From Candidatus Eiseniibacteriota bacterium (GTDB lineage Bacteria > Eisenbacteria > RBG-16-71-46 > DASYSL01): DNA of 64,000 bases. A model generated the notes under the pieces. The model searched no databases, was not told the origin of the DNA, and saw only the letters and a program-made list of their open reading frames with translations. The stretch lies in the NCBI GenBank assembly GCA_031413115.1, contig JANOEH010000047.1, forward strand, positions 703 to 64,702. The letters run 5' to 3'. The first letter of the stretch is position 1. Each line of letters opens with the position of its first letter. The position numbers and the translations under genes are program-made. Shown piece by piece: positions 1 to 19,531 of this stretch.

Positions 1-933
1 AATGGCTCTTCGGAGGGATTCGGCGTGACGTAGGTGAACCACGTGATCCCGCTCGCGCCGTGGGCGAGCGCCTGAGTTCCCTGGTAGAGCGCCTCCACCG
101 CCGTGACCGCGCGCAGGTCGCCATGGCCCGTCCACTGGAGCACGGCGCCGAACGGACGCCCGGTTGCCTGCGAGACACGCGCCGCCTCGCGCAGCGTGGC
201 GAGGAAGTGTGGGCGCTCGCCGCCCGGGCCGAACGGATACGCATCGAACGTGAACAGCATGAGTTCGCCCGCCCCGATCGCCGCCGTGACCTCGTTTCGC
301 CATCGTGCTGCAGCGTTCGGATTCGCCGCGTCTCTCGGTGCAATCGGGAGGAAGTTCACATACGCCGGATGCCACGGGTCGAGGCGCCGGAGGAGCCGTG
401 CGGCGGGCGCCCACGCGGGCGCGTCGGACGGCTGCGGTTCGTCGGCGAGGAAATACCCCGCGAGGGAGTTCGAGTCCTTGTAGGCCTGCACGATGGCCTC
501 CACGCGAGCCTCCCAGCCGGGACGGGTCGTCTCGTCGGGATGGAGCGAATCGTCGCGCACGAAGACGTACGGGAGGTAGCTCTCCTCCTCCGTCGCGCGC
601 ATGGAGTCGAGCAACGCGAGCCGTGCGACGTTGTCGGATCGGCGGAAGCGGTCTTCGAGCGGCCCCATCGACACGTCGAGCCGGGCCTTCGCGTGCGTGC
701 GCCAGTTCGCGGGCGAGAGATCGTCGGCGCGCGGGCCGACCCAACCGGCGATCCAGAACCCGTTGTTCCCGAGCGGCGAGCGCATCGCGGGGACGGCGGC
801 GAGGTCGGCCTCGACGAACACCGGCACGGCCACCTGCGCCGCCTCGCGCGCCCGCGAGGCCGCAAACGTCGCCAGCAAGGCCGCGACGACCGCGAGCCCG
901 GTGTCGAACAGCCGTCGCGCGGGGCTGCGGCCT

Positions 934-941
<8 letters not shown>
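1..941 (-). CDS. Partial (runs off the window start) exported TIM-barrel glycoside-hydrolase-like protein. Probable GTG start at 941, overlapping the dinB stop by 8 nt.
   Basis: Hand translation of the minus strand gives a continuous protein-like reading frame: VIEGRSPARRLFDTGLAVVAALLATFAAS (signal/TM-like N-terminus) ... GYFLADEPQP ... FTFDAYPFGPGG ... GITWFTYVTPNPSEEP. The xxDEP motif is typical of GH5/GH42-type TIM-barrel hydrolases. It is not in the ORF track because it exits the window. Confidence 0.5.
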
Positions 942-2160
<1,219 letters not shown>

Positions 2161-2445
2161 GGGGCGGCGAGCGTAGCACACGCGTCGCACCGCTGCGGCG
2201 GGGTGGATACAGCTACCTCGCCGCGCCAGCGGCGAGGGGAAGTCCGGTCGGCGCACAGGCGCGCACCGGCATTTCGCACGCGCCCCCGGCAAGGCATGTC
2301 CGGCGTTCAACTTGGAGCATCTGCCCATCGACCCGGCGGGTTCGCAAAGGCCCCCCCGCCTGGCGGCGGGGGAGATAGGCACGCCTCGTGCATTGCTTCG
2401 CCTCGTCTTGAGGCACGCGCATCCCCTGCACGAGAGGAGTCCTCG

Positions 2446-3279
2446 ATGAGTCCGCGCATGCTGTTCGTCAACGTGGTGCTGGGCGTGTCCGTGCTGGCGC
2501 GAATGGGGTCGGCCGAGACCCAGCTACCGTCCGCCGAGAGTGCGGAGCGCCCGGCATTTCTTGCGGTCTCTTCCGAGGTCCCGGGAGCCGCCCTCGCGCT
2601 CGCCGCCGCGCCGATGTTCGCCGTGGGTGGCAGCGACATCGCCACGCTGCAGGTGCGCCGTTACTACAAGACCCCTCCGCCGCCTCCCCCTCCGCTGCGG
2701 GCGTACCAGCCGCGCAACCTGTTCGCCGTCCGTGGCGGATTCTTCGACGCGGACAACGTGTCCGAGGAGTCGTGGATGATGGGGCTGAAGGCCGTCGGAA
2801 ACGTGAGCCCGATGTTCCGCCTGGGCGGGACGGTCGACTGGCAGTGGCGCACCAACAGCACGCGCACCGTGATCTCGACGGGAATCGACGGCGCGGGCAA
2901 CGTCGTGCAGTACAGCCGGACGATCGCCGAGTCCCAGTCGAGCCTGGTGCCGCTCATGGCTGTCGCCGAGTTCGTCCTGCCGTCGCAGGTGGTCCAGCCG
3001 TACGTCGGCGTCGGCGGCGGGTGGGAGTTCATGTACGTCGAGGCGTTCGACTACACGACCGGCTTCGGCTACGCGGCGCATTACGACGGGCCGGGCTGGC
3101 AGCTCTACGGCGGTGCCGACTTCCTGATCGCCCCGAACGTGCGTCTCAATGCCGAGGTATTCCACAACGAGGCGACGGTCGAGAGCAACTTCTACGACCC
3201 GTACTACGGCTACGCCACCGAGCAGCGCATCGACGCCGACGGAACAGGCGGCCGCTTCGGGTTGAGCTTCGCCTTCTGA
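2446..3279 (+). CDS. Outer-membrane beta-barrel protein (porin/OmpA-like), signal peptide, C-terminal Phe
   Basis: MSPRMLFVNVVLGVSVLARMGSAE signal peptide. Alternating aromatic beta-strand pattern. Ends ...RFGLSFAF. RBS gagaggag upstream of ATG 2446. The in-frame upstream part of ORF 601..3279 is antisense to dinB and not protein-like. Confidence 0.75.
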   Translation: MSPRMLFVNVVLGVSVLARMGSAETQLPSAESAERPAFLAVSSEVPGAALALAAAPMFAVGGSDIATLQVRRYYKTPPPPPPPLRAYQPRNLFAVRGGFFDADNVSEESWMMGLKAVGNVSPMFRLGGTVDWQWRTNSTRTVISTGIDGAGNVVQYSRTIAESQSSLVPLMAVAEFVLPSQVVQPYVGVGGGWEFMYVEAFDYTTGFGYAAHYDGPGWQLYGGADFLIAPNVRLNAEVFHNEATVESNFYDPYYGYATEQRIDADGTGGRFGLSFAF

Positions 3280-3312
3280 CCCGGAGCGACGCCGCGAAGG
3301 AAGGCAGCGGGC

Positions 3313-3340
3313 GGGGCGCCTCCGGGCGCCCCTTCTCGTT
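3313..3340 (+). terminator. Rho-independent terminator after the outer-membrane protein gene
   Basis: GGGGCGCC-tccg-GGCGCCCC perfect 8-bp stem followed by ttctcgtt. Confidence 0.6.
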
Positions 3341-3369
3341 GCAGGAACGTCGCTTGGCCGTGGGCCGCT

Positions 3370-3398
3370 TTGCACGATGCACGGTCGCCTGCTATGCT
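3370..3398 (+). promoter_or_regulatory. Candidate sigma-70 promoter for the nitroreductase gene
   Basis: TTGCAC - 17 nt - TATGCT, about 115 nt upstream of GTG 3512. Confidence 0.35.
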
Positions 3399-3511
3399 TT
3401 CTCTGATCTTGAATGCTTCACCCCAACGCGGACGGCGGAGGACGCGGCGGGGGCGACCCCGTTCACCCGCGGGGTCTTTGCTTTTGCGGTCCGCTGCATC
3501 GGGGAGGAATC

Positions 3512-4228
3512 GTGCCGTACACGAAGGAAGAGGAGCAGCGGCGTCGCGCCGAGGTCGAGCCGCCCGTCGAGCGAACGGTCGAGGACGCGGTGCTGTCCTA
3601 TCATCCGGTCCGCACCTTCGAGAAACGCGAGGTGCCCGAGGACAAGCTCCTCAAGATCCTGTCGCTCGCCCAGCGTGCGCCGTCGGAGTGGGGCGTGCAG
3701 CCGTGGCGCTGGCTCATCCTGCGCCAGCGCGACCAGCGCGAGAAGGTGTTCGCCTGCACCACCGGCTCCCCGGCGATCCTGTCGGCCCCGCTCGTGCTCG
3801 TGGCCTGCGCCAACACGCGCGAGTGGATCGAAGCGAAGGACACCTTCAAGGGCCGCGTCGAAGCCGGCCGCATGACGCAGGATGAGTACGACGAGGCCAT
3901 CGCCGAACTCGACCGCCTGTGCGGCGACGAGGACGGTCGCGGCGCCCGCGAGTTCGCGCTGCGCAACACGATGATGGCGCTCACCGCGTTCATGCTCGTC
4001 GCCCAGGGCGAAGGCCTCGCCACCGGCCCGATGGGCGGCTTCGACGAGGCGCGCCTCAAGGCGGCATTCGACCTGCCGGAAGAGTGGGTCGTCGCCGCCG
4101 TCTGCGCGCTCGGCTACCCCGACGAGGAGTTCGATCGCACGCTGCGCAAGCCGCTCGGCGACATCGTGCACTGGGACCGCCACGGCGGCGCCCGGCAGCA
4201 GTCGCAGGAGACCGGCAGCACGACTTAA
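3512..4228 (+). CDS. Nitroreductase-family protein (NAD(P)H:FMN oxidoreductase fold)
   Basis: Nitroreductase-like motifs (SEWGVQPWRW, LALGYPDEE). GTG start preceded by RBS ggggaggaa; the upstream ORF part is Gly/Arg junk. Confidence 0.8.
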   Translation: MPYTKEEEQRRRAEVEPPVERTVEDAVLSYHPVRTFEKREVPEDKLLKILSLAQRAPSEWGVQPWRWLILRQRDQREKVFACTTGSPAILSAPLVLVACANTREWIEAKDTFKGRVEAGRMTQDEYDEAIAELDRLCGDEDGRGAREFALRNTMMALTAFMLVAQGEGLATGPMGGFDEARLKAAFDLPEEWVVAAVCALGYPDEEFDRTLRKPLGDIVHWDRHGGARQQSQETGSTT

Positions 4229-4409
4229 ACTGGCTGCGAGAGCAGCCAGGAGCGAAAGACACGAATGGCTCGGGGCAGTCGCCCCGGGCCATTCGAATCG
4301 AGGCTCCCCGCCTCGAGAGCAGCCCCCGTACCCGCCCCCGGGGGACACATGAGTGAACTTCAACGAAATTGGTCACTCCTCCTCCTCTTGTCGCGACGAA
4401 GCACTCGAC

Positions 4410-4760
4410 GTGACTCCGTCTCTGACGTAGGCTCGACCTGTTCACGATATCGTCGAGACTCCGTTGTTCACGAAGCTCGTCGAGAGGGATCTCGACGATG
4501 ACGAGTACGCCGCACTTCAGGTGGTCCTGGTCGGAAACCCTGAGGCCGGGGTCGTGATTCCCGGGACGGGTGGAGTCCGCAAGCTCCGCTGGGCAGCCCG
4601 TGGAAAGGGCAAGCGCGGCGGAGCGCGCGTGATCTACTTCGTCCGGATGCGCAGCGGGATCATCTGGATGCTCGACATCTACAGGAAGGCAGTTCGCGAG
4701 GACATTTCCGCCAGAGTTCTCCGGCGGATGAGGGAGGAGCTCGAAGATGCCACGTCGTGA
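4410..4760 (+). CDS. higB2: HigB-2-type (RelE/ParE superfamily, Gp49-like) toxin. Start ambiguous: GTG 4353, GTG 4410 or TTG 4464.
   Basis: GTGGVRKLRWAARGKGKRGGARVIYFV...IWMLDIYRK aligns closely with Vibrio HigB-2 (GTGGLRKIRVASKGKGKRGGSRIIYYF). No ATG in frame after the stop at 4350. Confidence 0.8.
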
Positions 4761-5046
4761 ACGAGACATAGGCCGCGAGATCTTGACGGGCATTCGACAG
4801 TTGAAGCGCGGAATCCACGGCCGGATCCTGACTGTCCCGTCGGTCGCAGCGATCCGTGGCAAAACCGGACTGTCGCAGACGGATTTCGCAGCGCGAATCG
4901 GGGTCTCCGTTCGAACGCTTCAGGAATGGGAGCAGGGCCGGCGTGCACCTTCGGGCCCGGCTCGCACACTGCTTTCGATCGCGTACGCCAACCCGGACAT
5001 CCTGCTCGGCGTGACTCCTGGAAGGGCCCGCTCGTCAGGGAGCTGA
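4747..5046 (+). CDS. higA2: HigA-2-type antitoxin, XRE-family helix-turn-helix (HTH)
   Basis: GLSQTDFAARIGVSVRTLQEWEQGRRAPSGPARTLL HTH. ATG overlaps the toxin end by 14 nt, the toxin-first order typical of HigBA. Confidence 0.8.
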   Translation: MPRRERDIGREILTGIRQLKRGIHGRILTVPSVAAIRGKTGLSQTDFAARIGVSVRTLQEWEQGRRAPSGPARTLLSIAYANPDILLGVTPGRARSSGS

Positions 5047-5168
5047 ACTTGCGCCGTGCAGGTTGCCGGGGTGGTCGCATTGACTTGCTCCGGGCCGTCT
5101 CCCCGCGGATCATCAGGGTCGCCACCAGATAGCCCCCGCCGCGACGGTGGCGAGGCCGCTTCGCAGCC

Positions 5169-6152
5169 TCATCCCCCGATCTCCGACATGTTCACCGGCG
5201 CCTCGGGGCCGCTGTAGCCCAGCGCCAGGTGGTGGCTCTCGGGCTTGCGCGTCATCGCATCGACGATGAGGCCGCGCAGGTCGTCGACCGTCGCCCCGGC
5301 CCGCAGCGGGCCGCGCAGGTCGCAGCCCGACTCGCCGAACAGGCACAGCCGCAGCTTGCCGGTCGTGGTCAGGCGCACGCGGTTGCAGGCGCCGCAGAAC
5401 GTGTGCGACAGCGGCGTGATGAAGCCGACCGAGCCGACCGCGCCGGGGTACCTGAACTCCGCGGCGGGGCCGGCCAGCGCGTCGCGCTCGACGGGGATCA
5501 GTGTGCCGACGGCGGCCAGCCGCTCGCGGATGGAGTCGGTCGAGACGTACTGCCCGACCTGGGCGCCCGGGTTCGAGCGCATGGGCATGACCTCGATGAA
5601 GCGGATGGTCCATGGCCGCGTGAACGTCGTACGGGCCATGGCCTCGATCTCGCCGTCGTTGACGCCCTTCATCACCACCATGTTGAGCTTGATCGGGGCG
5701 AGGCCCACTTCCTCCGCGGCGGCGATGCCGTCGAGCACCGCCTCGAGCGAGGAGTTGACCGAGATCGCCTTGAACGTCGCGGGATCGAGCGTGTCGAGCG
5801 AGACGTTGACGCGCTTGAGGCCGGCATCCTTCAGCGCGCGGGCCTTGTCGCGCAGGAGGACGGCGTTGGTGGACAGCGCCAGGTCCTCGACCTCGGCGAA
5901 CGCGGCCAGCCGGGCGACCAGCGACTCGAGGTCGCGGCGGACCAGCGGCTCGCCGCCGGTGAGGCGGAACTTGCGGACGCCGAGCCCGACCATCGCCTCG
6001 GCGATGGTCCCGATCTCCTCGTACGAGAGGATGTCGGCGGGCTGCTCGCCGCCGAGGTAGCCGTTGGGCATGCAGTACCGGCACCGCAGGTTGCAGCGGT
6101 CGGTGACCGAGATGCGGACGTAGCGGATGGAGCGGCCGAACGGGTCGATCAT
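5169..6152 (-). CDS. moaA: GTP 3',8-cyclase (molybdenum cofactor biosynthesis, radical SAM)
   Basis: CNLRCRYCMP radical-SAM cluster. C-terminal CGACNRVRLTTTGKLRLCLF second cluster. Full-length MoaA. Confidence 0.95.
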   Translation of the reverse strand: MIDPFGRSIRYVRISVTDRCNLRCRYCMPNGYLGGEQPADILSYEEIGTIAEAMVGLGVRKFRLTGGEPLVRRDLESLVARLAAFAEVEDLALSTNAVLLRDKARALKDAGLKRVNVSLDTLDPATFKAISVNSSLEAVLDGIAAAEEVGLAPIKLNMVVMKGVNDGEIEAMARTTFTRPWTIRFIEVMPMRSNPGAQVGQYVSTDSIRERLAAVGTLIPVERDALAGPAAEFRYPGAVGSVGFITPLSHTFCGACNRVRLTTTGKLRLCLFGESGCDLRGPLRAGATVDDLRGLIVDAMTRKPESHHLALGYSGPEAPVNMSEIGG

Positions 6153-6262
6153 GATCGGGCAAGGATATCATGTCGGCGCGGTGATCAGCGACCGCGGCCA
6201 AGTCCTGTCTCCATGCGAGCTTGGCCTTGTCGCTGTCCCACCCCTCGTGTAGGTTGCGGCGC

Positions 6263-7480
6263 ATGAGGTCCTTCCGCTTTCTCCAGCTCTCCGATCTTCA
6301 CCTGGGTCGTCCGTTCACGTGGCTTCCGCCCGCGCTCGCCGAAACGCGCCGGTCCGAGCAGCGCGACCTCCTGTGGCGCGCCGTGCAGCGCGCGATCGAC
6401 GACAAGCTCGACGCCGTCCTGATCGTCGGCGACCTGTTCGACGGCGAGATCGTCGATCGCGAAACCGTCGCGCGCGCCATCGAGTGCGTGTCGCAGGACG
6501 GCTGCCCGCCGGTGTTCATCGCGCCCGGCAACCACGACTGCTTCTCGCGCTCCACGTTCTACTACGACAATCGCCGTCTCGTCGCCGCGGGGCAGGCTCC
6601 GTGGCCCGGGCACGTGCACATCTTCGACTCGCCGCGCTTCGCGAGCGCGCCGCTGGCCGGCCGCGACGACATCCTGATCTGGGGCCGCTGCGCCGATCGC
6701 AACGTCGACTCGAGCGAGCGCGTGCTCGCCGAGGATCGGCCCACGCTGCTGCGCGACCGGCTCAACGTGCTCATGCTGCACGGCTCGCAGGACGGGTTCC
6801 TGCCGCCGGGCAAACGCATGACCGCGCCGTTCAACGCCGACGAGCTGCTGGCGTGGGGGGCCGATTATGCCGCGCTGGGCCACTATCACCGGCCGTCCAC
6901 GATCGTCGACGACGACGGCGTGATCCGTGGCAGCTATTCGGGTTCGCCGGTCGCGCTGGCCATCGACGAGACCGGGCCGCGCTACGTGCAGGTCGTCACC
7001 GTCGAGCACGTCGCCGACCACCGGCGCGTCGAGATCACGCCGCTCGAGCTGGATCGCCGCCGCTTGCACCGGCTCGAGGTGCGCGCCGACGGCGTGGGTT
7101 CGCCCGAGGGCCTGGTGCATCGCATCGTCAGCGGGCTCGAGGCGGCGCTCGTCGGCGCCGAGGACTTCGCGTTCGTCACGCTGACCGGCCGCGTGCGCTC
7201 GGGCATCGACGTCAAGGCGCGGGCCGAGGACGTGCCGTTCAAGTGCTTCCACCTGTCGCTCGATGCGGCCGCGCTGCGCCCCGACTACGACCTCGAGGCC
7301 TACCGGCGGCTCGAGCCCAAGACCACCGAGGAGCGCTTCGTGCGCTCGCTGCTGGCCGAGCTCGACGCCGAGCCCGACCCGGCGCGGCGGCGCATCGTCG
7401 AGGCGGCGCTCTATTACGGACTCGACGCGCTGCGCCTGGGTGACGTGGCGCCGCGCTACGAGCACGCGGGGGGCGCATGA
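6263..7480 (+). CDS. SbcD/Mre11-like metallophosphoesterase nuclease (YhaO/SbcF-type)
   Basis: QLSDLHLG, VGDLFDG and PGNHD calcineurin-like phosphoesterase motifs. ATG at 6263; ATGA overlap with the downstream ATPase gene. Confidence 0.85.
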   Translation: MRSFRFLQLSDLHLGRPFTWLPPALAETRRSEQRDLLWRAVQRAIDDKLDAVLIVGDLFDGEIVDRETVARAIECVSQDGCPPVFIAPGNHDCFSRSTFYYDNRRLVAAGQAPWPGHVHIFDSPRFASAPLAGRDDILIWGRCADRNVDSSERVLAEDRPTLLRDRLNVLMLHGSQDGFLPPGKRMTAPFNADELLAWGADYAALGHYHRPSTIVDDDGVIRGSYSGSPVALAIDETGPRYVQVVTVEHVADHRRVEITPLELDRRRLHRLEVRADGVGSPEGLVHRIVSGLEAALVGAEDFAFVTLTGRVRSGIDVKARAEDVPFKCFHLSLDAAALRPDYDLEAYRRLEPKTTEERFVRSLLAELDAEPDPARRRIVEAALYYGLDALRLGDVAPRYEHAGGA

Positions 7481-10446
7481 TCCTTCGTCGGCTCAAGATC
7501 GACGGCTTCGGCGCGCTGAGCGGCGCGTGGACGTTCGAGCCGGGTGCACTGCACCTGGTCGTCGGCGAGAACGAGCGCGGGAAGACCACGCTCGCCGCCG
7601 CCATCGCCGCCGCGCTCTACGGCCTCGAGGCCGACAAGCGCAGCTGGCGCGACCGCGCCACCCCGCTCGAGCAGCATCGCCCGTGGAGCGGCAAGCCGTA
7701 CGCGCTCGAGCTCGAGTTCGAGCTCGCGGGCCGGCGCTACGTGGTCAATCGCCACTTCGGGAACGGCCGCCTCACCGTGCTCCAGGATGGCAAGGACGTG
7801 ACCGAGACGTTCCGCCACGGTTCGGGCGAGTACAAGCTGGGCGAGGAGCTGCTGGGCATGAGCGGCGACCAGTTCGCGCGCAGCGCGCTCTGGCTGCAGC
7901 CCGGCCCCGGCCGGCTCGGCGGCTCCGAGGTGCGGCCCGACGGCACGCTGACGTCGCTGCTCGAGAGCATGGCGTCGTCCGTGCAGGGCGACACCACGGC
8001 GGCCGAGGCGATCGGCGTGCTCGATGACGCGCTCAAGAACTACCGCGGCGTGCAGCAGTCGGGAATGATCGCCAACGAGATCAAGAAACTCGAGATCGCG
8101 CTGGGCACGATCGCGGTCGACCTCAACGCCGCGCAATCCGATCGCGAGGCTCTGGCCACGGACCTGACGCGACTCGCCGAGTTCGAGGATCGCGAGAATG
8201 CGCTCGGCTCACGGCTGCTGGTCGCCCGTCGCGGCGGCGCGGTACGCCGCCTGGGCGAGGTCGAAGCCGCGCTCGAGAAGGACGACGCCGAGCGCGCGCA
8301 GCTCACCGCGTGGCGCGACGAGCTCAAGCGCCTGGCCCCGGCGCGCGCCGTGCCCGACGACGCGCCCGATCGGCTGCAGGCCGCGCAGGCCGAGTTGGGC
8401 GCCGGCCGGCGCACGCTCGAGGAGGTGCGCGCCGAGCGCGAGCGCGACATTTCGGGCCCGCGTCTCGAGATCGAGACGACGCTGGCCACCTACGCCGCGT
8501 TCACCAACGCCGAGGCGCGCCAGATCGAGGAGCTGCATGCCCTCGAAAAGGACCTGGAGCGGGCGCGTCAGCAGGCGCGGAGTTCGGCCGAGAAGCGCGC
8601 CGAGCTCGAGAAGGAGCTCACGGCGCGCGGCGTGCCCGTCGAGCGGGCCGCCGAGCTGTCGGCGCGCTTCGGCCCGCTGACCGCCGAGGATCGCGGGCTG
8701 CTCACGCAGTTCCCCGCGCAGACGCAGCACCTGGTCACCGAGGCCGAGACCTCGCAGCGCGCCGCGCAGGGCGGGCAGGCGATCATCGAGGAGGTGGGCC
8801 GTCAGCGCAGTCGCATGCGCGGCTTCGGCTTCTTCGCCGGCGTCGTCGGGCTGCTCGCGGGGACCGCGGCGGTGTGGCTGGCGCTGGCCGGGCGCTCGAT
8901 CGAGAGCTTCGTCGGCCTGGGCGTCACGCTGCTGGCGCTCGCCGGCGCGACGGTGCTCCTGCTGCGCAGCGCGGCCCACCGCGATGCCGACCGACGGGCG
9001 GCGCTCGACCAGGTGGTCGAGGCACAGCGCCGCGCGGGCGAAGTGCGGCAGCGGCGCAAGGAGCGCGAGGACGCGCTCGCCCGCATGGCCGCGAAGTTCG
9101 ACTTCCCCGACGTGACGACGCTGTTGCGCGATTTTGGCGAGTCGCAGCGGCTGATCGCCGAGGTGCAGCGCTTCGACTGGATCGACCAGGATCGCGCCCG
9201 GGCCGGCGAGGATGGCGCGCGGGTCGAGGCCGAGATGAAGGAGCGCCTGCGCAATGCAGGGCTCGACACCGGCATGCCGCCGCACGAGGCATTCGCGCGC
9301 CTGCACATGGGCATCGGCAGCGTGCTCGAGGCCCGCGCGCGGCGCACCCGGCTCGACGAACTGGAGAACGGCCTGATCGCCCGTGAGAAGGCCGCGCTGA
9401 CGCGCATCGCCGAGGCCCGTGGCGGCATTCGCGCCCTGGCCGGCGCGCTGGGACTGCCCGTGCCCGACGGCGAGGCCACCGACACGCCGGTCGTTGGCGC
9501 GCGCGACGCGGGCGCCGCCGCGGCGCGCGAGAGTCGCGCCTTCGAGGCGCTCGCCGAGGCGGTTGCGACGAAGGCGGTCGAGCGTCGCCGCCTCGACACG
9601 CTCGAGGGCGAGCTCGTGCCCGCGGTCTCCGGGCGCGTGCTCGACGAGGCGACCCGTGGGGCCCTCGAACGCGAGCGCAATGGTCTCGCCGCCGAAGTCG
9701 AGGCCGCCGGCGCGGGAGCCCGCATCGGGCGCAGCCCGGCAGCCCCGATGGCGAGCCCGGGCGAGGCGCCCGGTGATGCCGTCGCGCTCGAGCGCGAACT
9801 CGAAGACGTCCGTCGCAACCTGATCGAGCTGCACGCGCGGGTCGGCGGACGCGAGGGTGCCACGGCCAAGCGTGCCGCCGAGCTGCTGGCGGATCGCGAT
9901 CGCCTGCATGCCGCGCTGGAGCGCGCCCGCGCGTTCAAGGCAGCGGTCGAACTGGCACGCGAACGCTTCCAGACCGTCGCCCGCGAGACGCATGCCCGCT
10001 GGTCCGAGCACCTGGCCGGGCGCGTCGACGAGTTGCTCGCCCGGTTCGGGCTGGCGCACGCCGGGTTCAAGGTCTCGGACAAGCTCGAACTGTCGCTCAC
10101 GCTCGACGGCGACCGGCTGAGCGGGGCGCGCCTCGAGCAGAGCTTGTCGACCGGCGCGCGCGACCAGGTGACGCTGGCGCTGCGCATCGCGATCTGCGAG
10201 TTCCTGGCCCGCGGCGGCGCGAAGTTGCCGCTGTTGCTCGACGATCCGCTCGCCCACGCCGACGACGCCCGGGCCGGGCGCCTGCTGCGGGTTCTGGCCG
10301 AGGCGGCCGCAACGGGGCACCAGGTGATCGTGCTCACCTGCCACCGGGCGACCGTCGACGCCCTGTCTGAGGAGGACCCTGCGTGGTTCGGCCAGGCCGT
10401 GCGGGTGGTCGAGTTCGGGGCCGCCGGGGTGGCTCGGCCGGTCTGA
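7477..10446 (+). CDS. SbcC/Rad50-like ABC-type ATPase (YhaN/SbcE-type) with long coiled coil and a central two-helix hydrophobic hairpin
   Basis: N-terminal Walker A GENERGKTT. C-terminal signature LSTGARDQ, Walker B LLLDDPLAHAD, H-loop VIVLTCH. Coiled-coil-rich middle. FGFFAGVVGLLAGTAAVWLALAG plus FVGLGVTLLALAGATVLLL in place of a zinc hook. Confidence 0.85.
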   Translation: MILRRLKIDGFGALSGAWTFEPGALHLVVGENERGKTTLAAAIAAALYGLEADKRSWRDRATPLEQHRPWSGKPYALELEFELAGRRYVVNRHFGNGRLTVLQDGKDVTETFRHGSGEYKLGEELLGMSGDQFARSALWLQPGPGRLGGSEVRPDGTLTSLLESMASSVQGDTTAAEAIGVLDDALKNYRGVQQSGMIANEIKKLEIALGTIAVDLNAAQSDREALATDLTRLAEFEDRENALGSRLLVARRGGAVRRLGEVEAALEKDDAERAQLTAWRDELKRLAPARAVPDDAPDRLQAAQAELGAGRRTLEEVRAERERDISGPRLEIETTLATYAAFTNAEARQIEELHALEKDLERARQQARSSAEKRAELEKELTARGVPVERAAELSARFGPLTAEDRGLLTQFPAQTQHLVTEAETSQRAAQGGQAIIEEVGRQRSRMRGFGFFAGVVGLLAGTAAVWLALAGRSIESFVGLGVTLLALAGATVLLLRSAAHRDADRRAALDQVVEAQRRAGEVRQRRKEREDALARMAAKFDFPDVTTLLRDFGESQRLIAEVQRFDWIDQDRARAGEDGARVEAEMKERLRNAGLDTGMPPHEAFARLHMGIGSVLEARARRTRLDELENGLIAREKAALTRIAEARGGIRALAGALGLPVPDGEATDTPVVGARDAGAAAARESRAFEALAEAVATKAVERRRLDTLEGELVPAVSGRVLDEATRGALERERNGLAAEVEAAGAGARIGRSPAAPMASPGEAPGDAVALERELEDVRRNLIELHARVGGREGATAKRAAELLADRDRLHAALERARAFKAAVELARERFQTVARETHARWSEHLAGRVDELLARFGLAHAGFKVSDKLELSLTLDGDRLSGARLEQSLSTGARDQVTLALRIAICEFLARGGAKLPLLLDDPLAHADDARAGRLLRVLAEAAATGHQVIVLTCHRATVDALSEEDPAWFGQAVRVVEFGAAGVARPV

Positions 10447-10587
10447 TTCCCCCCGGCGCTCCGCGCTTCGGGATTGACTCCGGACATTGTTCGCCTAGTC
10501 TGACGACGCTCCCGGTGTGTCCCATGGCCGGGGTCGGGCGGCCCGAGTTCTCGGCGCCGCCGATGGACTCACAGAGTGGAGGGATCC

Positions 10588-11145
10588 ATGCGACTTTGCA
10601 GACTACTGTTCATCGTCTCGATCCTCGTACTGGTCGGAGCGGCCTCGGTCGCCCAGGCCCAGGACGAACGGTTCGGGATCGTCGTGCACGGGGGAACCAT
10701 GATTCCGGTTACCCAGGACGACAACGAGGAATCCGGCACGGCGTTCGGCCTTCGCTTCCCGATCAACACCGGGACGATCTTCGGTATCGAGCCGTACATC
10801 TACACGGGCAGCGGCAAGGAGATGACCGCCGACTTCGGGTTCGGCCCGGAGACGCGCGAGGGGATCGACCTGACCTCGTGGGGCGCCAACGTCTCGCTCG
10901 GACGGCTCGTCAAGCCGGGTTTCCACATCGCCCCGTTCGTCGGGATCGGCAACAACACGCTGCACCGGGAGTCGGGTGAAATCTCGAAGATCGGCTACAA
11001 CGGCGGTCTCGAGCTTGGTATCGCCCCCGGCAAGATGATGATCAACCTGCGTGGCGAGATGAACGTCGTCGACATCGGTGAGTCGTCGCGGAAGTGGGGC
11101 CTGATCTCGCTCGGCCTCGGCTACCGCGTCACTCCCAACTTCTAG
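10588..11145 (+). CDS. Small outer-membrane beta-barrel protein (OmpW/OmpA-like, 8-strand type)
   Basis: Signal peptide MRLCRLLFIVSILVLVGAASVAQAQ. Alternating hydrophobic strands. C-terminal ...GYRVTPNF. RBS gtggaggg before ATG 10588. Confidence 0.7.
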   Translation: MRLCRLLFIVSILVLVGAASVAQAQDERFGIVVHGGTMIPVTQDDNEESGTAFGLRFPINTGTIFGIEPYIYTGSGKEMTADFGFGPETREGIDLTSWGANVSLGRLVKPGFHIAPFVGIGNNTLHRESGEISKIGYNGGLELGIAPGKMMINLRGEMNVVDIGESSRKWGLISLGLGYRVTPNF

Positions 11146-11154
11146 GAGGCCGGA

Positions 11155-11733
11155 ATGAAAGCGCTTCGCTTTGCCGCGCTCTTGCTCCCGGTCGCACTTG
11201 CCGGGTGCATTCTCACGACGGGACAGTTCAACATCGACGTCGACCTCGACGATCCGATCACGATCGACAGCGACCAGAGCTACTACGCCGAAGTCGTGGA
11301 CATGAACACCAACGAGGACTACGTCAGCCACAAGGACGATCTCGTCGGGATCGCCGACATCGCCCTGCTCGGTACGGCGGTCAACACCGGGCCGGCGGAC
11401 ATCGACGTGGAGGTCTGGATTTCGCCGGATGCCAGCAAGTACAGTGATGCCGACGACGTGCGCGAGAACGCCTACAAGCTCTGGGGTCCGTTCGGTGTCG
11501 CTGCCGACTCGGAGCGGAAGGTCACCTGGGACGACTCGGCCGCCCTGTTCAATTCGACCGGCAAGTTCGTGCTCCTCGAGGAGCTCAAGGGCGACGGCGT
11601 GTTCACCATGTACGCGCTGCGCACGACGGAGATCCTGGACGCGAAGTCGGTCCCCGTCGCGAAGACCTCCGGTTTCTCCGAGCTCAGCCTGAACGAGGGC
11701 AAGCTCGTGATCACCATCGAGGGCAAGGACTAA
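11155..11733 (+). CDS. Lipoprotein of unknown function (lipobox LAGC)
   Basis: MKALRFAALLLPVALAGC lipoprotein signal. RBS aggagg. 9 nt after the outer-membrane protein stop. Confidence 0.7.
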   Translation: MKALRFAALLLPVALAGCILTTGQFNIDVDLDDPITIDSDQSYYAEVVDMNTNEDYVSHKDDLVGIADIALLGTAVNTGPADIDVEVWISPDASKYSDADDVRENAYKLWGPFGVAADSERKVTWDDSAALFNSTGKFVLLEELKGDGVFTMYALRTTEILDAKSVPVAKTSGFSELSLNEGKLVITIEGKD

Positions 11734-11766
11734 GCCTTCGTCGTCCACGACGCTGACGCAAAGCGA

Positions 11767-11805
11767 AACGCCGGACCAGAACATCGGTCCGGCGTTCTTG
11801 CTTGC
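11767..11805. terminator. Bidirectional rho-independent terminator between convergent genes
   Basis: AACGCCGGACC-agaacat-GGTCCGGCGTT 11-bp perfect stem followed by cttgcttgc. Lies between the lipoprotein stop (11733) and the kinase stop (11833). Confidence 0.6.
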
Positions 11806-11832
11806 GCTGGCACGGGCGGCGCTTCGCGCCGG

Positions 11833-14703
11833 TTATCGGAAGTCGCGCACCAGCACGACGTCGGTCGTGATCGTGCCGGCGCCGAAGGCGAGCGTCATCC
11901 CGCCGTCCACCCAGCGGATCTCGAAGATCTCCTGCCCCTCGAACTGCGTCAGCTGCCGTGCGCCCGACCCGTCGGCGTTCGCCATCCAGATGTTTTCCCC
12001 GGCCCCCACGCGCACGACGATCGCGAGCCGCGCTCCGTCGGGTGACCGCACGTAGTCCGTCAGGCGGCCAGATGCAAACCGGGTCACGGGTGCCGGCGTT
12101 CCGCCGCCAAAGGGCAGGCGCATCAGGTTGGCCGCCGGATCAGAGGTCGATAAGAAGTCGACCCCACGCTCGTCGGGGCTCAGCTGCGCGATCGTCGCGT
12201 CTCCCGGCAGCAGGATGCTGTCGCGCGCGGCGCTTCCATCGAGCGGTTGCAGGCGGAGCATGAAGCGCTGGAGCCCCCGCTCGTCCCGGGTCACACGGCT
12301 AACGAGAGCCTTTGTGCCGTCCTTCGTGTAGTCGGAGATGCCGGCCTCCGGGAGGACGAGTCCTTCCGTCATCGCCGGCATCGCGAGGAAGCGAAGGACA
12401 CGCAGCTCGGTGTAGCGCCCGAACCCGAGCCACCGCCCGTCCCGCGTCGCCCCGCGATGCTGCTCCCCGGAGCCCGTCGTCACCTGCGTCAGCTCGGTGC
12501 CGTCGGGCTTCACCGACCAGACGTGGATGCCATCGGCGCCCAGCCGATCGAAGATGACCCGCCCGCCGGCGGCGACCGGGTTGACCGCGAACGTGCGTCC
12601 GGACGTGAGCCTGCGCGGCTCGCCGCCCGCGACCGGGATCGACCACAGGGGGAGGCCCTCGTCGCGTGGTGCGTGGTACACCAGCGTCGCCGAGTCCGCG
12701 ACGGCCAGGCCCCCCGGCGAGTTCTCGGGGTTCGCGGCCCGCGTGAGTTGTCGCGGTGTACCTCCGGCGACGTCGACGGTCCACAGGTTCGAGAGTCGCG
12801 TCTGGCGGACGCTGGCGAGCGCCTCCTCGCCGCCGGCGGCGCCGATCGCGCGGTACGCCTGGAAGTCGTTCGTCACGCGCTGCACGGCCTTGCCGGGATA
12901 GCCGACGAGGAGCACCTGCGGCGTGCTCATGGTCATGTAGTCCTGGGCACAGATCGCGAATCCGCTGCCGTCGACGAGCCAGCTCAGGTCGAAGATCTGC
13001 GTCCGTGGCAGGCTCACGTGGTCGCGGCGCTTGCCCGTCACCGGATCGAACAGCGCGATCGTGGTCGTCAGGTCGCGCTCGGGCGAGAACAGCGCGGACG
13101 CGATCTGCTTGCCGTCGGGCGACCACGCGGGTGGGCTGGTGGGGAACTCGCCGAACTTCACCTCCGTGACGACCCGCTCCTTCGAGGCGTCGAGGTCGAA
13201 CTCGACCAGGCGGTTCCCGCCCTCCGCGCCCCTGCCGCGCCAGAACAACAGGCGCTTGCCGTCGGGGGCGAAGGTGGCGCGCGAGTCGACGTCGAACACG
13301 CGCTCCTGCGGCGTCCCGCCGAGCGAGGGCACCTGGTAGAGGGCCGAATAGCTCTGCACGTCGCGGCGTCGCTGGCGGAAGAACAGGTAGTTGCCGTCGG
13401 GCGAGAACGACGGCGTGTTGATCTGGTCGGGTGACGGTGGCACCACCTCGACGTCGCTGCCGGTGGCGACCTGCCGGACCCGCAGCGTGATCGCCCCCGC
13501 GGAGCCTGCGAGGTAGGCGAGGTAACGGCCGTCCGCGGAAAGCGCGCAGTCGCGCACGTCGCCCCGGCTCGTCACCGTGGTCATGCGCATGCTCGCGAAC
13601 GCCTCCGGCCGGGCGGTCTTGCCGCCGCGCGACAGCGCCCACCAGGCGCCGCCGGCCAGCGCGAGCACGACCAGCGCGCCGATGCCCAGGAGCACGGGCG
13701 ACGGTCCGCGCTGCTTCGCCGCGGCCAGTCCGACCGCCGAGGCGCCGGCCAGGCTGCCCGAGCTCGCCGAGGCGGACAGCGCGTCGTAGTCGTCGACGAT
13801 CTCGCGCAGCTCGAGCGCCAGGTCCTTCATCGACTGCAGGCGCTGCTCGGGGTTCTTCGCCAGGCAGCGGCGGATGAGGCGACGCAGTTCGGCCGGCACC
13901 TGCGGGTTGATCTCCTCGATCGGCGCCGGCTTCTCGTTGAGGATCCGGTGCATCGTCTCGATGCTGGTCTCGGCCGCGAAGGGGGCACGCCGCGTCGCGG
14001 CCTCGTACAGGATGCAGCCGAACGAGAAGATGTCCGCCCGGTGATCCACGGACTTGCCGGCCACCTGCTCGGGCGCCATGTAGCCGACGGTGCCGACGAT
14101 CACGCCGATGCCGGTCGCGTCCTGCGTCAGCGCCGGACCGCCCGTGGCGCTCGCGTCGGCCGCGCCCGCGCTCCTCTCGGTGAGCTTGGCGAGGCCGAAG
14201 TCGAGCACCTTGGCGAAGCCGTCGTTGGTGACCATGATGTTGCCCGGCTTGAGGTCGCGGTGAACGATCCCCACGCCGTGCGCCTTGGCCAGCCCGTCGG
14301 CGGCCTGGGCCAGCCAGCCGAGCAGCGTGCGCAGGTCGGTGCGATCCTCGTGGATCAGGTTCGACAGCGTCTTGCCGTTGACCAGTTCCATCGAGATGTA
14401 GTGCACGCTCGACGACGGCTCGAGGCCCGGCGAGCGCACCGCGTCTTCCCCGATCTCGTAGATGGTGACGATGTTCGGGTGGCTGAGCGACGAGGCCGAC
14501 TTCGCCTCGAGCCTGAAGCGGCGCACGCGATCCTCGCTGCGCACCAGGTCGGGCGGCAGGATCTTGAGCGCGACGTTCCGCTCCAGGGAGCGATCCTGCG
14601 CCAGGTACACCTCGCCCATGCCGCCGGCGCCGAGTGGGCCGACGATGCGGTAGTGCGAGAGTTCGTCCTCGGAGCGCAGTGTTCTTCCACCCTCGTGCGC
14701 CAT
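11833..14703 (-). CDS. Ser/Thr protein kinase with TM segment and C-terminal TolB-like/WD40-like beta-propeller repeats
   Basis: GAGGMGEVYLAQD, HRDLKPGNIM and DFGLAK kinase motifs. Hydrophobic helix (LLGIGALVVLALAGGAWWAL). Repeated SPDG../FAPDGKRL propeller blades. RBS aggagg before ATG 14703. Confidence 0.9.
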   Translation of the reverse strand: MAHEGGRTLRSEDELSHYRIVGPLGAGGMGEVYLAQDRSLERNVALKILPPDLVRSEDRVRRFRLEAKSASSLSHPNIVTIYEIGEDAVRSPGLEPSSSVHYISMELVNGKTLSNLIHEDRTDLRTLLGWLAQAADGLAKAHGVGIVHRDLKPGNIMVTNDGFAKVLDFGLAKLTERSAGAADASATGGPALTQDATGIGVIVGTVGYMAPEQVAGKSVDHRADIFSFGCILYEAATRRAPFAAETSIETMHRILNEKPAPIEEINPQVPAELRRLIRRCLAKNPEQRLQSMKDLALELREIVDDYDALSASASSGSLAGASAVGLAAAKQRGPSPVLLGIGALVVLALAGGAWWALSRGGKTARPEAFASMRMTTVTSRGDVRDCALSADGRYLAYLAGSAGAITLRVRQVATGSDVEVVPPSPDQINTPSFSPDGNYLFFRQRRRDVQSYSALYQVPSLGGTPQERVFDVDSRATFAPDGKRLLFWRGRGAEGGNRLVEFDLDASKERVVTEVKFGEFPTSPPAWSPDGKQIASALFSPERDLTTTIALFDPVTGKRRDHVSLPRTQIFDLSWLVDGSGFAICAQDYMTMSTPQVLLVGYPGKAVQRVTNDFQAYRAIGAAGGEEALASVRQTRLSNLWTVDVAGGTPRQLTRAANPENSPGGLAVADSATLVYHAPRDEGLPLWSIPVAGGEPRRLTSGRTFAVNPVAAGGRVIFDRLGADGIHVWSVKPDGTELTQVTTGSGEQHRGATRDGRWLGFGRYTELRVLRFLAMPAMTEGLVLPEAGISDYTKDGTKALVSRVTRDERGLQRFMLRLQPLDGSAARDSILLPGDATIAQLSPDERGVDFLSTSDPAANLMRLPFGGGTPAPVTRFASGRLTDYVRSPDGARLAIVVRVGAGENIWMANADGSGARQLTQFEGQEIFEIRWVDGGMTLAFGAGTITTDVVLVRDFR

Positions 14704-14712
14704 GATGTCCTC

Positions 14713-16589: not shown

Positions 16590-16663
16590 GGGCCGGGACT
16601 CTAGCAGACGGCGCGCCCGGTCCCTATAGCCCGCACCCGTCCGGGTCCCTATACTCCGGTCCC

Positions 16664-19381: not shown

Positions 19382-19502
19382 CGACTTTTGCCCGCAACCG
19401 GCCGAACGAGCCCGACGAGCATACCACAGGACGGGGGATCTCCCGGCCGAAGGCTTCCGGCTAACTGTTTGTCAGGAATGAATCTAACTGGACCCCGCCG
19501 GC

Positions 19503-19531
19503 TTGACGACCCCGCTCGGTCCCCGTATCCT
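19503..19531 (+). promoter_or_regulatory. Candidate sigma-70 promoter upstream of erpA
   Basis: TTGACG - 17 nt - TATCCT, about 105 nt upstream of ATG 19637. Confidence 0.35.

What the first reader, a model, noticed from the sequence alone, without database searches (positions are those of the whole stretch)
6263..10446. SbcD/SbcC-like nuclease pair of the YhaO/YhaN (SbcF/SbcE) type with a membrane hairpin instead of a zinc hook
A 405-aa Mre11/SbcD-like phosphoesterase (DxH, GD and GNHD motifs) is ATGA-coupled to a 989-aa Rad50/SbcC-like ATPase. In that ATPase the coiled-coil apex is replaced by two strongly hydrophobic helices (FGFFAGVVGLLAGTAAVWLALAG / FVGLGVTLLALAGATVLLLRSAA), suggesting a membrane-tethered SMC-like nuclease. 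Such pairs act in double-strand-break repair (Bacillus SbcEF). Related ATPase-nuclease pairs also recur in anti-phage defence systems. A Cas4-like PD-(D/E)XK nuclease is encoded 6 kb downstream (16664-17494).
Basis: partly seen in the sequence, partly recalled or inferred. Interest (0 to 1): 0.5.

Follow-up and report, generated by a model that had tools for sequence, protein, structure and literature searches.

The report
Membrane-anchored Mre11–Rad50-like nuclease pair (SbcEF)
Two overlapping genes encode a DNA-end nuclease and its long-armed ATPase partner, and the tip of the ATPase arm is a membrane-spanning hairpin instead of the usual zinc hook; this is a genuine but ordinary member of the little-studied YhaO/YhaN (SbcF/SbcE) family, which proves far more widespread than the literature says.

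Summary
Window 6263-7480 encodes a 405-aa Mre11/SbcD-fold phosphoesterase with all catalytic motifs. It overlaps by ATGA the gene at 7477-10446 for a 989-aa Rad50/SMC-like ATPase. That ATPase has no CxxC anywhere. At its midpoint (aa 449-500) are two uncharged helices joined by a 4-residue turn and flanked by Arg-rich segments. In the AlphaFold model this hairpin is the apex of the helical arm.

Profile-profile comparison with Bacillota YhaN proteins, including an Oceanobacillus yhaO-yhaN-yhaM locus, gives probability 100%, E 1e-60, colinear end to end with the hairpins aligned. The pair therefore belongs to the YhaO/YhaN (SbcF/SbcE) family, and the hairpin is the "unique central domain" described in 2009. 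It occurs in essentially all relatives examined, across more than 10 phyla and one archaeon.

Only the nuclease and ATPase are linked across 83 loci. The Cas4-like gene is not a partner, the context is housekeeping, and no plasmid or phage copies were found, so a defence role is unsupported.

Most likely it is a membrane-tethered DNA-end-processing complex. This is a new member of a known kind, of moderate interest because the membrane anchoring is under-appreciated.

The parts
6263..7480 (+). sbcF/yhaO-like gene: 405-aa Mre11/SbcD-fold phosphoesterase. Nuclease core aa 1-240, capping-like beta domain aa 242-340, C-terminal helix-loop-helix aa 355-392.
   Evidence: Metallophos PF00149, E 1e-14. 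Weak SbcD/Mre11 NCBIfam hits, all far below cutoff. Catalytic motifs I-V conserved. AF2 pLDDT 87, pTM 0.82. All top-50 Foldseek PDB hits are Mre11/SbcD, best 6s6v_B at 1.7e-13. 27% identity over 281 aa to Oceanobacillus YhaO, E 1e-15.
7477..10446 (+). sbcE/yhaN-like gene: 989-aa Rad50/SMC-like ABC ATPase, translationally coupled to the nuclease gene by an ATGA overlap.
   Evidence: AAA_23 plus AAA_27 above the Pfam cutoffs. Rad50 head matches in PDB, 5f3w at 7.6e-9. AF2 pLDDT 79.9. Foldseek returns Smc5/6, Rad50, condensin, MukB and JetC. hhalign versus Bacillota YhaN: 100%, E 1.2e-60.
7564..7587 (+). Walker A / P-loop, GENERGKT (aa 30-37).
   Evidence: N32, E33, G35 and K36 are invariant in 22 homologues.
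8068..8820 (+). Ascending helical arm (aa 198-448).
   Evidence: Long helices in the AF2 model. Ala/Glu/Arg/Leu-rich. A crude heptad spectral test was inconclusive, z 1.4.
8821..8892 (+). Predicted transmembrane helix 1, GFGFFAGVVGLLAGTAAVWLALAG (aa 449-472). It is preceded by the Arg-rich segment RQRSRMR.
   Evidence: KD19 2.08 and no charged residue. Low hydrophobic moment, 0.42. Summed Hessa energy -0.2 kcal/mol. G458 and A469 are at least 90% conserved.
8893..8904 (+). Four-residue turn RSIE (aa 473-476), the predicted periplasmic face.
   Evidence: AF2 places the helix break at aa 471-473. In homologues the turn is 0-6 residues, so there is no extracytoplasmic domain.
8905..8976 (+). Predicted transmembrane helix 2, SFVGLGVTLLALAGATVLLL (uncharged run aa 477-496; the part extends to aa 500 with RSAA). 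It is followed by the charged segment HRDADRR.
   Evidence: KD19 2.36. Summed Hessa energy -1.5 kcal/mol, the minimum of the protein. AF2 helix 474-500.
8977..10047 (+). Descending helical arm (aa 501-857), with two low-confidence, probably disordered insertions at aa 658-674 and 744-767.
   Evidence: AF2 secondary structure and pLDDT.
10144..10167 (+). ABC signature motif, LSTGARDQ (aa 890-897).
   Evidence: S891, G893 and Q897 are invariant and D896 is at least 90% conserved. The same LSxGxxDQ motif occurs in Bacillota YhaN.
10228..10245 (+). Walker B, PLLLDD (aa 918-923). It ends in Asp-Asp rather than the canonical Asp-Glu. D-loop D929 and H-loop H956 follow.
   Evidence: D922 and D929 are invariant; D923 and H956 are at least 90% conserved. 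The Bacillota alignment likewise has DD, at D926 and D927.

Best explanation
This is a two-gene operon for a member of the YhaO/YhaN (SbcF/SbcE) family, a paralogue of the Mre11-Rad50 / SbcCD DNA-end-processing machine.

Shown here:
- The nuclease has an intact Mre11-type di-metal active site, a capping-like domain and a C-terminal helix-loop-helix of the kind Mre11 uses to grip the base of the Rad50 arm.
- The ATPase has a complete ABC head split between its N- and C-termini, two long helical arms, and two uncharged about 20-24-residue helices with a 4-residue turn at the reversal point, in place of a CxxC zinc hook.

Inferred:
- The hairpin inserts into the cytoplasmic membrane with both ends inside (Arg-rich flanks) and only a tiny periplasmic turn.
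- The heads and nuclease would then hang up to about 35 nm into the cytoplasm on a membrane-tethered stalk.
- The Gly/Ala-rich hairpins of two protomers pack in the bilayer, giving the apex dimerisation that the zinc hook gives in Rad50/SbcC.
- ATP-driven head engagement then clamps and cuts DNA ends or hairpins as in SbcCD, but only on DNA lying near the membrane.
- By analogy with Bacillus subtilis SbcEF (PMC2811018), the physiological role is constitutive, presynaptic processing of double-strand breaks and of DNA entering at the envelope.
For: Identity:
- Pfam AAA_27 and AAA_23 are hit above cutoff.
- hhalign of the window clade against Bacillota YhaN gives 100%, E 1.2e-60, 837 columns, hairpin aligned to hairpin.
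- The Bacillota reference locus is authenticated by a downstream YhaM equivalog, 513 bits against a cutoff of 460.
- JGI names one homologue 'uncharacterized protein YhaN'.

Nuclease:
- Motifs are invariant or nearly so.
- The AF2 model is confident.
- All top-50 fold hits are Mre11/SbcD.

ATPase:
- Motifs are conserved.
- The AF2 model shows a head plus long helices.
- Fold hits are SMC/Rad50.

Hairpin:
- KD peaks are 2.08 and 2.36, and there is no CxxC.
- These are the only insertion-competent windows in the protein.
- The hydrophobic moment is low.
- Outer flanks are net positive and the turn is 0-6 residues across the family.
- The hairpin is present in 49/50 homologues, about 65/80 genome loci, and 114/120 full-length 50%-identity representatives at relative position 0.49 +/- 0.01.
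- Across distant taxa the sequence is not conserved but the hydrophobicity is.

Operon:
- A 4-nt overlap with an upstream Metallophos gene is seen in every context examined.
- Only these two genes recur across 83 loci.

Function by analogy (PMC2811018):
- The SbcE central domain is hydrophobic and insoluble and lacks CxxC.
- An sbcE mutant is sensitive to DSBs and MMC and transforms 20-fold less well.
- SbcE and SbcF localise to the competence pole.
Against: - Membrane insertion is predicted from hydropathy only. No dedicated TM predictor was available, and no experiment exists for any family member in the literature I could search.
- In B. subtilis, SbcE-YFP foci were described as lying on the nucleoid and moving between poles. 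That fits a membrane protein only if the foci are at the nucleoid periphery.
- The coiled-coil nature of the arms rests on the AF2 model and fold matches. My heptad spectral test was not significant.
- Walker B is Asp-Asp, not Asp-Glu, so ATPase kinetics may differ from Rad50.
- Similarity to Bacillus YhaN at the pairwise level is confined to the heads: 23% over 242 aligned columns.
- Function is transferred across phyla from a single genetic study.
- I could not check whether this genome also has a canonical SbcCD.
Confidence: 0.75

Rival explanations
1. Anti-phage or anti-plasmid defence module. A membrane-tethered ATPase-nuclease pair patrols the inner face of the membrane and destroys linear DNA ends as foreign DNA is injected or transferred.
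For: - Membrane anchoring would place the nuclease where foreign DNA enters (inference).
- The head domain gives weak PADLOC hits to mad3 (1.5e-12), LmuB (2.6e-11) and GajA.
- A RelE/XRE toxin-antitoxin pair lies 1.2 kb upstream and a PD-(D/E)XK nuclease 6 kb downstream.
- B. subtilis SbcE and SbcF gather at the DNA-uptake pole.
Against: - The PADLOC hits are generic ABC-head matches of low score. The nuclease has no meaningful hit.
- Neighbourhoods are housekeeping and differ between lineages.
- No third gene is linked, and the PD-(D/E)XK gene is not among the neighbour families that recur.
- There are no copies on 72,556 plasmids or 50,697 phage records.
- The family looks like a stable chromosomal gene, described as present in all Gram-positive genomes analysed.
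- Loss of sbcE lowers transformation 20-fold rather than raising it, the opposite of a barrier to incoming DNA.
Confidence: 0.12
2. The hydrophobic hairpin is not membrane-inserted. It is a soluble dimerisation 'hinge', a four-helix bundle buried between two protomers, so the complex is cytoplasmic like SbcCD.
For: - The 2009 study treated it as a 'central domain' and saw foci on the nucleoid.
- Gly/Ala-rich helices (38% G+A+S) can pack tightly in soluble bundles.
Against: - There are 43-54 consecutive residues with essentially no charge, a mean hydropathy around 2 and a very low amphipathic moment. A soluble bundle needs polar outer faces.
- The sequence is unconserved across phyla while hydrophobicity, length (about 2 x 20-24 residues) and positive flanks are kept. 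That is the signature of a lipid-facing anchor.
- The isolated domain and the full-length protein are completely insoluble in E. coli.
Confidence: 0.08
3. An ordinary canonical SbcCD (Mre11-Rad50) pair with a zinc hook, mis-read by the first stage.
For: JGI annotates several homologues as 'DNA repair exonuclease SbcCD' subunits. Weak NCBIfam SbcC, SbcD and Rad50 hits exist.
Against: - There is no CxxC in the protein, and only 1 of 120 representatives has any central CxxC.
- NCBIfam scores are far below cutoff: SbcC 21 vs 478 bits, SbcD 58 vs 450 bits.
- The protein aligns end to end with YhaN instead.
Confidence: 0.02

Closest known systems
Bacillus subtilis SbcE (YhaN) / SbcF (YhaO), Krishnamurthy et al. 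2009/2010, PMC2811018. Corresponds to Pfam AAA_27 (PF13514); the COG is COG4717 from my own knowledge.
   Same: - Same two-gene order, nuclease then ATPase.
- Similar sizes: 405 + 989 aa here, 407 + 981 aa in Oceanobacillus.
- Same head motifs (GxNExGK[ST], LSxGxxDQ, DD Walker B).
- No CxxC.
- A hydrophobic central hairpin at the same relative position.
- Profile-profile E 1.2e-60, colinear.
   Different: - Only 23-33% identity, confined to the heads at the pairwise level.
- No yhaM downstream.
- No proline in the central segment.
- The host is a diderm candidate phylum (Eisenbacteria-like) rather than a Gram-positive. The literature describes the family as Gram-positive or Firmicutes-specific.
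- Function is untested here.
E. coli SbcCD and archaeal/eukaryotic Mre11-Rad50
   Same: - Mre11-fold nuclease with capping domain and C-terminal helix-loop-helix.
- ABC ATPase head split by a long antiparallel helical arm.
- Adjacent, co-oriented genes.
   Different: - The apex is a membrane hairpin instead of a CxxC zinc hook.
- Walker B is DD, not DE.
- Sequence scores are far below the family cutoffs.
- The gene order is nuclease first, whereas E. coli is sbcD-sbcC as well but many Mre11-Rad50 operons vary. This last point is from my own knowledge and was not tested.
SMC-like ATPases of defence systems (Lamassu LmuB, Gabija GajA, MADS mad3, Wadjet JetC)
   Same: ABC/SMC-type head with helical insertions. 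Weak HMM and fold similarity.
   Different: No cognate partner genes, no defence-island context, no mobile-element copies, and a membrane hairpin that those proteins are not known to have.

Membership tests
YhaN/SbcE - YhaO/SbcF family | N-terminal YhaN-type P-loop domain (Pfam AAA_27, PF13514) above the gathering score | tested here: met
   31.9 bits against a cutoff of 22; AAA_23 36.8 against 27.
YhaN/SbcE - YhaO/SbcF family | Full-length homology to an authenticated yhaN (one lying in a yhaO-yhaN-yhaM locus) | tested here: met
   hhalign of A1 against A3 (first sequence Oceanobacillus L045): 100%, E 1.2e-60, 837 columns, 1-965 against 1-886. L045 has a YhaM equivalog downstream at 513 bits. 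Pairwise BLAST aligns the heads only.
YhaN/SbcE - YhaO/SbcF family | Hydrophobic 'unique central domain' between the two arms, with no CxxC | tested here: met
   aa 449-500, KD 2.08 and 2.36, no CxxC. The same feature is seen in L045 at aa 468-503. Described in PMC2811018.
YhaN/SbcE - YhaO/SbcF family | SbcD/Mre11-like nuclease gene immediately upstream in the same operon | tested here: met
   ATGA overlap. The same arrangement occurs in all contexts examined.
YhaN/SbcE - YhaO/SbcF family | Highly conserved proline within the central domain (reported for Gram-positive homologues) | tested here: not met
   There is no proline between aa 444 and 505 of the window protein. I could not see the paper's supplementary figure, so its exact position is unknown. 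This is probably a lineage-specific detail.
YhaN/SbcE - YhaO/SbcF family | Role in DSB repair and transformation; physical SbcE-SbcF interaction | not testable with these tools
   Genetic and yeast two-hybrid data exist only for B. subtilis.
Canonical SbcCD / Mre11-Rad50 | Mre11 phosphoesterase motifs I-V and the Mre11 fold with capping domain | tested here: met
Canonical SbcCD / Mre11-Rad50 | CxxC zinc hook at the coiled-coil apex | tested here: not met
   No CxxC; the only Cys are C907 and C955.
Canonical SbcCD / Mre11-Rad50 | NCBIfam SbcC/SbcD/Rad50/Mre11 models at or above the curated cutoff | tested here: not met
   SbcD 58.4 against 450 bits; sbcc 21.4 against 478.5; Rad50 41 against 700.
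Known anti-phage systems with SMC-like ATPases (Lamassu, Gabija, MADS, Pbe/Dnd) | Strong match to the system's HMMs plus the cognate partner genes nearby | tested here: not met
   Only weak head-domain hits (best is mad3, 45.8 bits), and the nuclease has no hit better than E 0.0055. The neighbours are DinB, nitroreductase, MoaA, an OMP, a kinase and a GNAT.

The most novel reading that the evidence does not exclude
The YhaN/SbcE family is a phylogenetically broad class of Mre11-Rad50-like machines in which a bilayer-embedded helical hairpin replaces the zinc hook as the apex closure. It has more than 3,000 clusters at 50% identity, spans at least 10 bacterial phyla and includes at least one archaeon. 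The membrane itself would then close the SMC ring, and the complex would be dedicated to DNA ends that arise or arrive at the cell envelope: DNA uptake, conjugative or phage entry, or septum-trapped or membrane-attached chromosome regions. This would be a spatially specialised branch of end processing that has been overlooked since the 2009 description missed the transmembrane nature of the 'central domain'.
Probability: 0.35. Interest if true: 0.65.

Novelty: new member of a known kind. Interest (0 to 1): 0.4.

Why it matters
For this window alone, the result is a correct functional annotation of two genes that pipelines label 'AAA family ATPase' and 'metallophosphoesterase' or mis-label 'SbcCD'.

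More broadly, the survey done here shows three things.
- The SbcEF family is not Gram-positive-specific, as the literature states. It occurs in Eisenbacteria, Planctomycetota, Dormiibacterota, Eremiobacterota, Chloroflexota, Actinomycetota, Verrucomicrobiota, Bacteroidota and an Archaeoglobaceae.
- Its enigmatic 'central domain' behaves in every respect like a two-helix membrane anchor.
- The cassette is strictly two genes.

A membrane-tethered Mre11-Rad50 paralogue would explain the insolubility and polar localisation reported for B. subtilis SbcE. It also gives a testable model for how SMC-like arms can be closed by something other than a hook or hinge.

Tried and rejected
- Canonical SbcCD with a zinc hook: rejected (no CxxC; NCBIfam far below cutoffs).
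- Defence-system membership: PADLOC gave only weak head hits. tblastn against plasmids and phages found nothing.
- Cas4-like PD-(D/E)XK gene as a third component: it is syntenic in a 56%-identical relative. It is absent from the contexts of more distant relatives and is not among the neighbour families that recur across 83 loci, so it was rejected.
- Two small downstream genes (OMP beta-barrel-like 10576-11145; unknown 11155-11733) as operon members: conserved only in close relatives, not beyond.
- Second SbcC/SbcD-like pair in the window: none. The rest of the genome could not be searched.
- Heptad periodicity test of the arms: inconclusive, z about 1.2-1.4.
- Promoter and terminator consensus scan of 5900-11900: nothing. 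Rfam on 1-20000: nothing.
- Protein comparison on two alignments failed internally. hhalign -glob gave a degenerate alignment and the default realign crashed. It worked with -norealign.
- Exact look-up of the window protein in the assembly index: not on record.
- Literature searches for membrane-anchored Rad50/SMC-like nucleases, Rv1277/Rv1278, PF13514 and SbcEF found no description of the transmembrane hairpin.

Full report
**Observation**

The ORF listing and direct translation confirm the two genes. One runs from ATG 6263 to TGA 7480 and encodes 405 aa. The other runs from ATG 7477 to 10446 and encodes 989 aa. They overlap as ATGA. The genome has about 70% G+C. GC3 frame analysis marks both as genuine coding regions with GC3 0.92-0.93. 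In a 97%-identical relative (GCA_031431875.1), independent gene calling yields the same 405 + 989 aa overlapping pair.

The quoted hydrophobic segments are at aa 449-472 and 475-500 of the ATPase. Their Kyte-Doolittle 19-residue peaks are 2.08 and 2.36. The protein contains only two cysteines (C907, C955) and no CxxC.

**The nuclease**

- Pfam Metallophos is hit at E 1e-14.
- NCBIfam SbcD and Mre11 models match weakly and far below their cutoffs.
- PDB sequence search finds E. coli SbcD, 4lty at 1.3e-9.
- In an alignment of 20 homologues down to 42% identity, all Mre11 catalytic motifs are invariant or nearly so: D11/H13, G56-D57, G89-N90-H91-D92, H173, G206-H207-x-H209. A C-terminal segment at aa 339-399 is also strongly conserved.
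- The AlphaFold model is confident (pLDDT 87, pTM 0.82). It shows the phosphoesterase core, a beta-rich capping-like domain at aa 242-340 and a terminal helix-loop-helix at aa 355-392.
- All top-50 Foldseek hits in the PDB are Mre11/SbcD, the best being the E. coli SbcCD head complex 6s6v at 1.7e-13.

**The ATPase**

- Pfam AAA_23 and AAA_27 are hit above their gathering scores.
- Rad50 head structures are the only significant PDB sequence matches.
- The head motifs are conserved in 22 homologues: Walker A (N32-E33-G35-K36), Q-loop Q141, signature S891-G893-D896-Q897, Walker B D922-D923, D-loop D929 and H-loop H956.
- Walker B ends in Asp-Asp, not Asp-Glu. This is a family trait, also seen in Bacillota members.
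- The AlphaFold model (pLDDT 79.9) has an alpha/beta head built from both termini and long helices. Helix 403-470, a break at 471-473, and helix 474-500 running on into 503-540 make the hydrophobic hairpin the turning point of the arm.
- Foldseek returns Smc5/6, Rad50, condensin, MukB and JetC, that is, the SMC/Rad50 class.
- My simple heptad-periodicity test on the arms was not significant. 'Coiled coil' therefore rests on the model and the fold matches.

**Is the hairpin a membrane anchor?**

- Both helices are free of charged residues and have a low amphipathic moment, 0.4 against 0.65-1.0 for arm segments.
- On the Hessa scale (values recalled from the 2005 paper) they are the only windows of the protein with a summed insertion energy below +1 kcal/mol. 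TM2 is -1.5 and TM1 is -0.2, against a protein median of +20.6.
- The flanks are Arg-rich (RQRSRMR before, RSAAHRDADRR after) and the turn is four residues.
- Across the family the pattern is the same: two uncharged runs of 20-27 residues or one of 43-54, a turn of 0-6 residues and net-positive outer flanks.
- Between phyla the sequence itself is not conserved. That is what is expected of a lipid-facing anchor and not of a soluble hydrophobic core.
- The hairpins are rich in small residues: 38% G+A+S, with a median of six small-xxx-small motifs. G458 and A469 are at least 90% conserved in the window's clade. This is compatible with tight helix packing, including dimerisation in the bilayer. 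That last step is inference.

**Family membership**

The hairpin is a hallmark of the family, not a peculiarity of this protein.

- 49 of 50 word-index homologues have it, including 630-770-aa versions from Oscillospiraceae and other Bacillota.
- About 65 of 80 loci recovered from GTDB species genomes have it.
- 114 of 120 full-length representatives from the exhaustive HMM search have it, at relative position 0.49 +/- 0.01. The other six still have a strong central hydrophobic peak, and only one has any central CxxC.
- The family is large: 3,220 representatives at 50% identity score E <= 1e-30.
- One recovered locus, Oceanobacillus manasiensis L045, carries a 407-aa phosphoesterase and a 981-aa ATPase with a hairpin at aa 468-503. 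A bona fide YhaM follows two genes downstream (NCBIfam equivalog 513 bits, cutoff 460). This is the yhaO-yhaN-yhaM arrangement described for B. subtilis.
- Pairwise BLAST between the window proteins and L045 aligns only the ATPase heads (23% over 242 aligned columns, E 3e-15; 33% over 63 aa) and the nuclease core (27% over 281 aa, E 1e-15).
- A profile-profile comparison of the window clade with five Bacillota YhaN-type proteins is colinear from end to end: probability 100%, E 1.2e-60, 837 columns. It places hairpin on hairpin.

I therefore file the pair as a member of the YhaO/YhaN (SbcF/SbcE) family.

**What the literature knows**

The only functional study I could find is Krishnamurthy et al. 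(PMC2811018). It reports the following.
- SbcE has a 'unique central domain' whose first half is hydrophobic. It lacks CxxC, and it is completely insoluble when expressed in E. coli.
- The mutant is sensitive to endonuclease-induced DSBs and to MMC and transforms about 20-fold less well, with synthetic defects with recN and sbcC.
- SbcE and SbcF gather at the ComK-dependent DNA-uptake pole.
- SbcE interacts with YhaO in yeast two-hybrid.
- The word 'transmembrane' never occurs in the paper.

Later papers merely list SbcEF as a poorly characterised, Firmicutes-specific DSB factor. Searches for membrane-anchored Rad50- or SMC-like nucleases, Rv1277/Rv1278 and PF13514 found nothing relevant. From my own knowledge, and unverified here, UniProt and SubtiWiki list YhaN as a predicted multi-pass membrane protein. 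The hairpin is thus visible in databases but unexplored in the literature.

**Context and the defence idea**

The neighbours in the window are as follows.
- DinB/Pol IV at 934-2382 (-)
- a nitroreductase at 3413-4228
- a RelE/XRE toxin-antitoxin pair at 4464-5046
- MoaA at 5169-6152 (-)
- the nuclease-ATPase pair itself
- an OMP beta-barrel-like protein at 10576-11145
- an unknown protein at 11155-11733
- a Ser/Thr kinase with PD40 repeats at 11833-14703 (-)
- an Eis-like GNAT
- a PD-(D/E)XK protein at 16526-17494

This order is kept in relatives of 56-97% identity. It is lost in relatives of about 33% identity and in Bacillota, where only the upstream phosphoesterase with its 4-nt overlap persists. 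Clustering all neighbouring ORFs of 85 loci shows that only the nuclease and the ATPase recur (83 loci), so the PD-(D/E)XK gene is not linked.

PADLOC gives only weak head-domain matches. No relative is found in 72,556 plasmids or 50,697 phage records. The B. subtilis mutant also transforms worse, not better. A defence function is therefore unsupported, though not excluded.

**Mechanism proposed**

Shown: an intact Mre11-type nuclease with an arm-binding helix-loop-helix, and an intact ABC head on a long helical arm whose apex is a two-helix uncharged hairpin.

Inferred:
- The hairpin is inserted in the inner membrane with an in-out-in topology.
- Two hairpins associate in the bilayer and substitute for the zinc-hook dimer.
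- The heads and nuclease reach up to about 37 nm into the cytoplasm (251 residues x 0.1485 nm).
- ATP-dependent head engagement clamps DNA ends for Mre11-type cutting as in SbcCD.
- The substrate pool is restricted to DNA near the envelope.

The organism is probably a member of Candidatus Eisenbacteria/Eiseniibacteriota. It is a diderm, judged from the OMP gene.

**Verdict**

The feature is a new member of a known, under-studied family. Its membrane hairpin is real by every sequence criterion available and is the family's hallmark. Interest is moderate: ordinary for this locus, but the family-wide picture assembled here makes a concrete, testable hypothesis. That picture consists of a broad distribution, a strict two-gene cassette and a membrane anchor in place of a hook.

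Noticed in passing
window 4464-4760 (+) and 4747-5046 (+): A small overlapping gene pair with a weaker GC3 signal than its neighbours. One is a RelE-like toxin (PF06296, 25.5 bits, just under the cutoff of 27). The other is an XRE/HTH_3 antitoxin (E 3e-10). It is a probable type II toxin-antitoxin module inserted between the nitroreductase and moaA genes. The RelE-like gene is also present in the 97% relative (L086).
   Followed up: partly
window 16526-17494 (+), probable start 16664: PD-(D/E)XK nuclease (PDDEXK_1, E 8e-37). Its Cas4 match is below the Pfam cutoff. It is syntenic in a 56%-identical relative (L001 11590-12420) but is not linked to the SbcEF pair across the family.
   Followed up: yes
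L050 (Legionella londiniensis), L055 (Pseudorhodoferax), L084 (Aquabacterium), L061 (Prosthecobacter), L070, L048: A subgroup of about 885-910-aa relatives, also preceded by a phosphoesterase gene, lacks both the hydrophobic hairpin and a CxxC. At the midpoint, L050, L055 and L084 share a motif like GELL...(I/L)xITPGG(Q/E)(D/E). This suggests a third, soluble kind of arm apex.
   Followed up: no
L022 (Archaeoglobaceae MAG) 4877-8802: An archaeal genome carries the same cassette: a 375-aa nuclease and a 933-aa ATPase with a 4-nt overlap and a central hairpin at aa 434-477. The family therefore crosses the bacteria-archaea divide.
   Followed up: no
L029, L037, L046, L067-L069, L076, L081 (Planctomycetota): Planctomycete versions are much longer (about 1,150-1,300 aa). 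Their hairpin sits at relative position about 0.41, so the arms are asymmetric. Their upstream nuclease is often too divergent to be found with the window nuclease as the query.
   Followed up: no
window 10228-10245 (ATPase aa 918-923): Walker B ends in Asp-Asp rather than Asp-Glu throughout the family (D922 invariant and D923 at least 90% conserved here; D926/D927 in Bacillota). The usual catalytic glutamate of ABC/Rad50 ATPases is thus replaced, which may mean slow or differently regulated ATP hydrolysis.
   Followed up: partly
window 10576-11145 (+) and 11155-11733 (+): Two small same-strand genes lie just downstream of the ATPase: an OMP beta-barrel-like protein of 189 aa and an unknown protein of 192 aa. 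They are conserved with the pair in relatives of 56-97% identity but not beyond. They show that the host is a diderm.
   Followed up: partly
window 934-2382 (-) and 11833-14703 (-): A DinB/Pol IV translesion polymerase (IMS, E 2e-50) lies 4 kb upstream. A 956-aa Ser/Thr kinase with PD40 beta-propeller repeats lies 1.4 kb downstream. Neither is linked to the pair in distant relatives.
   Followed up: no
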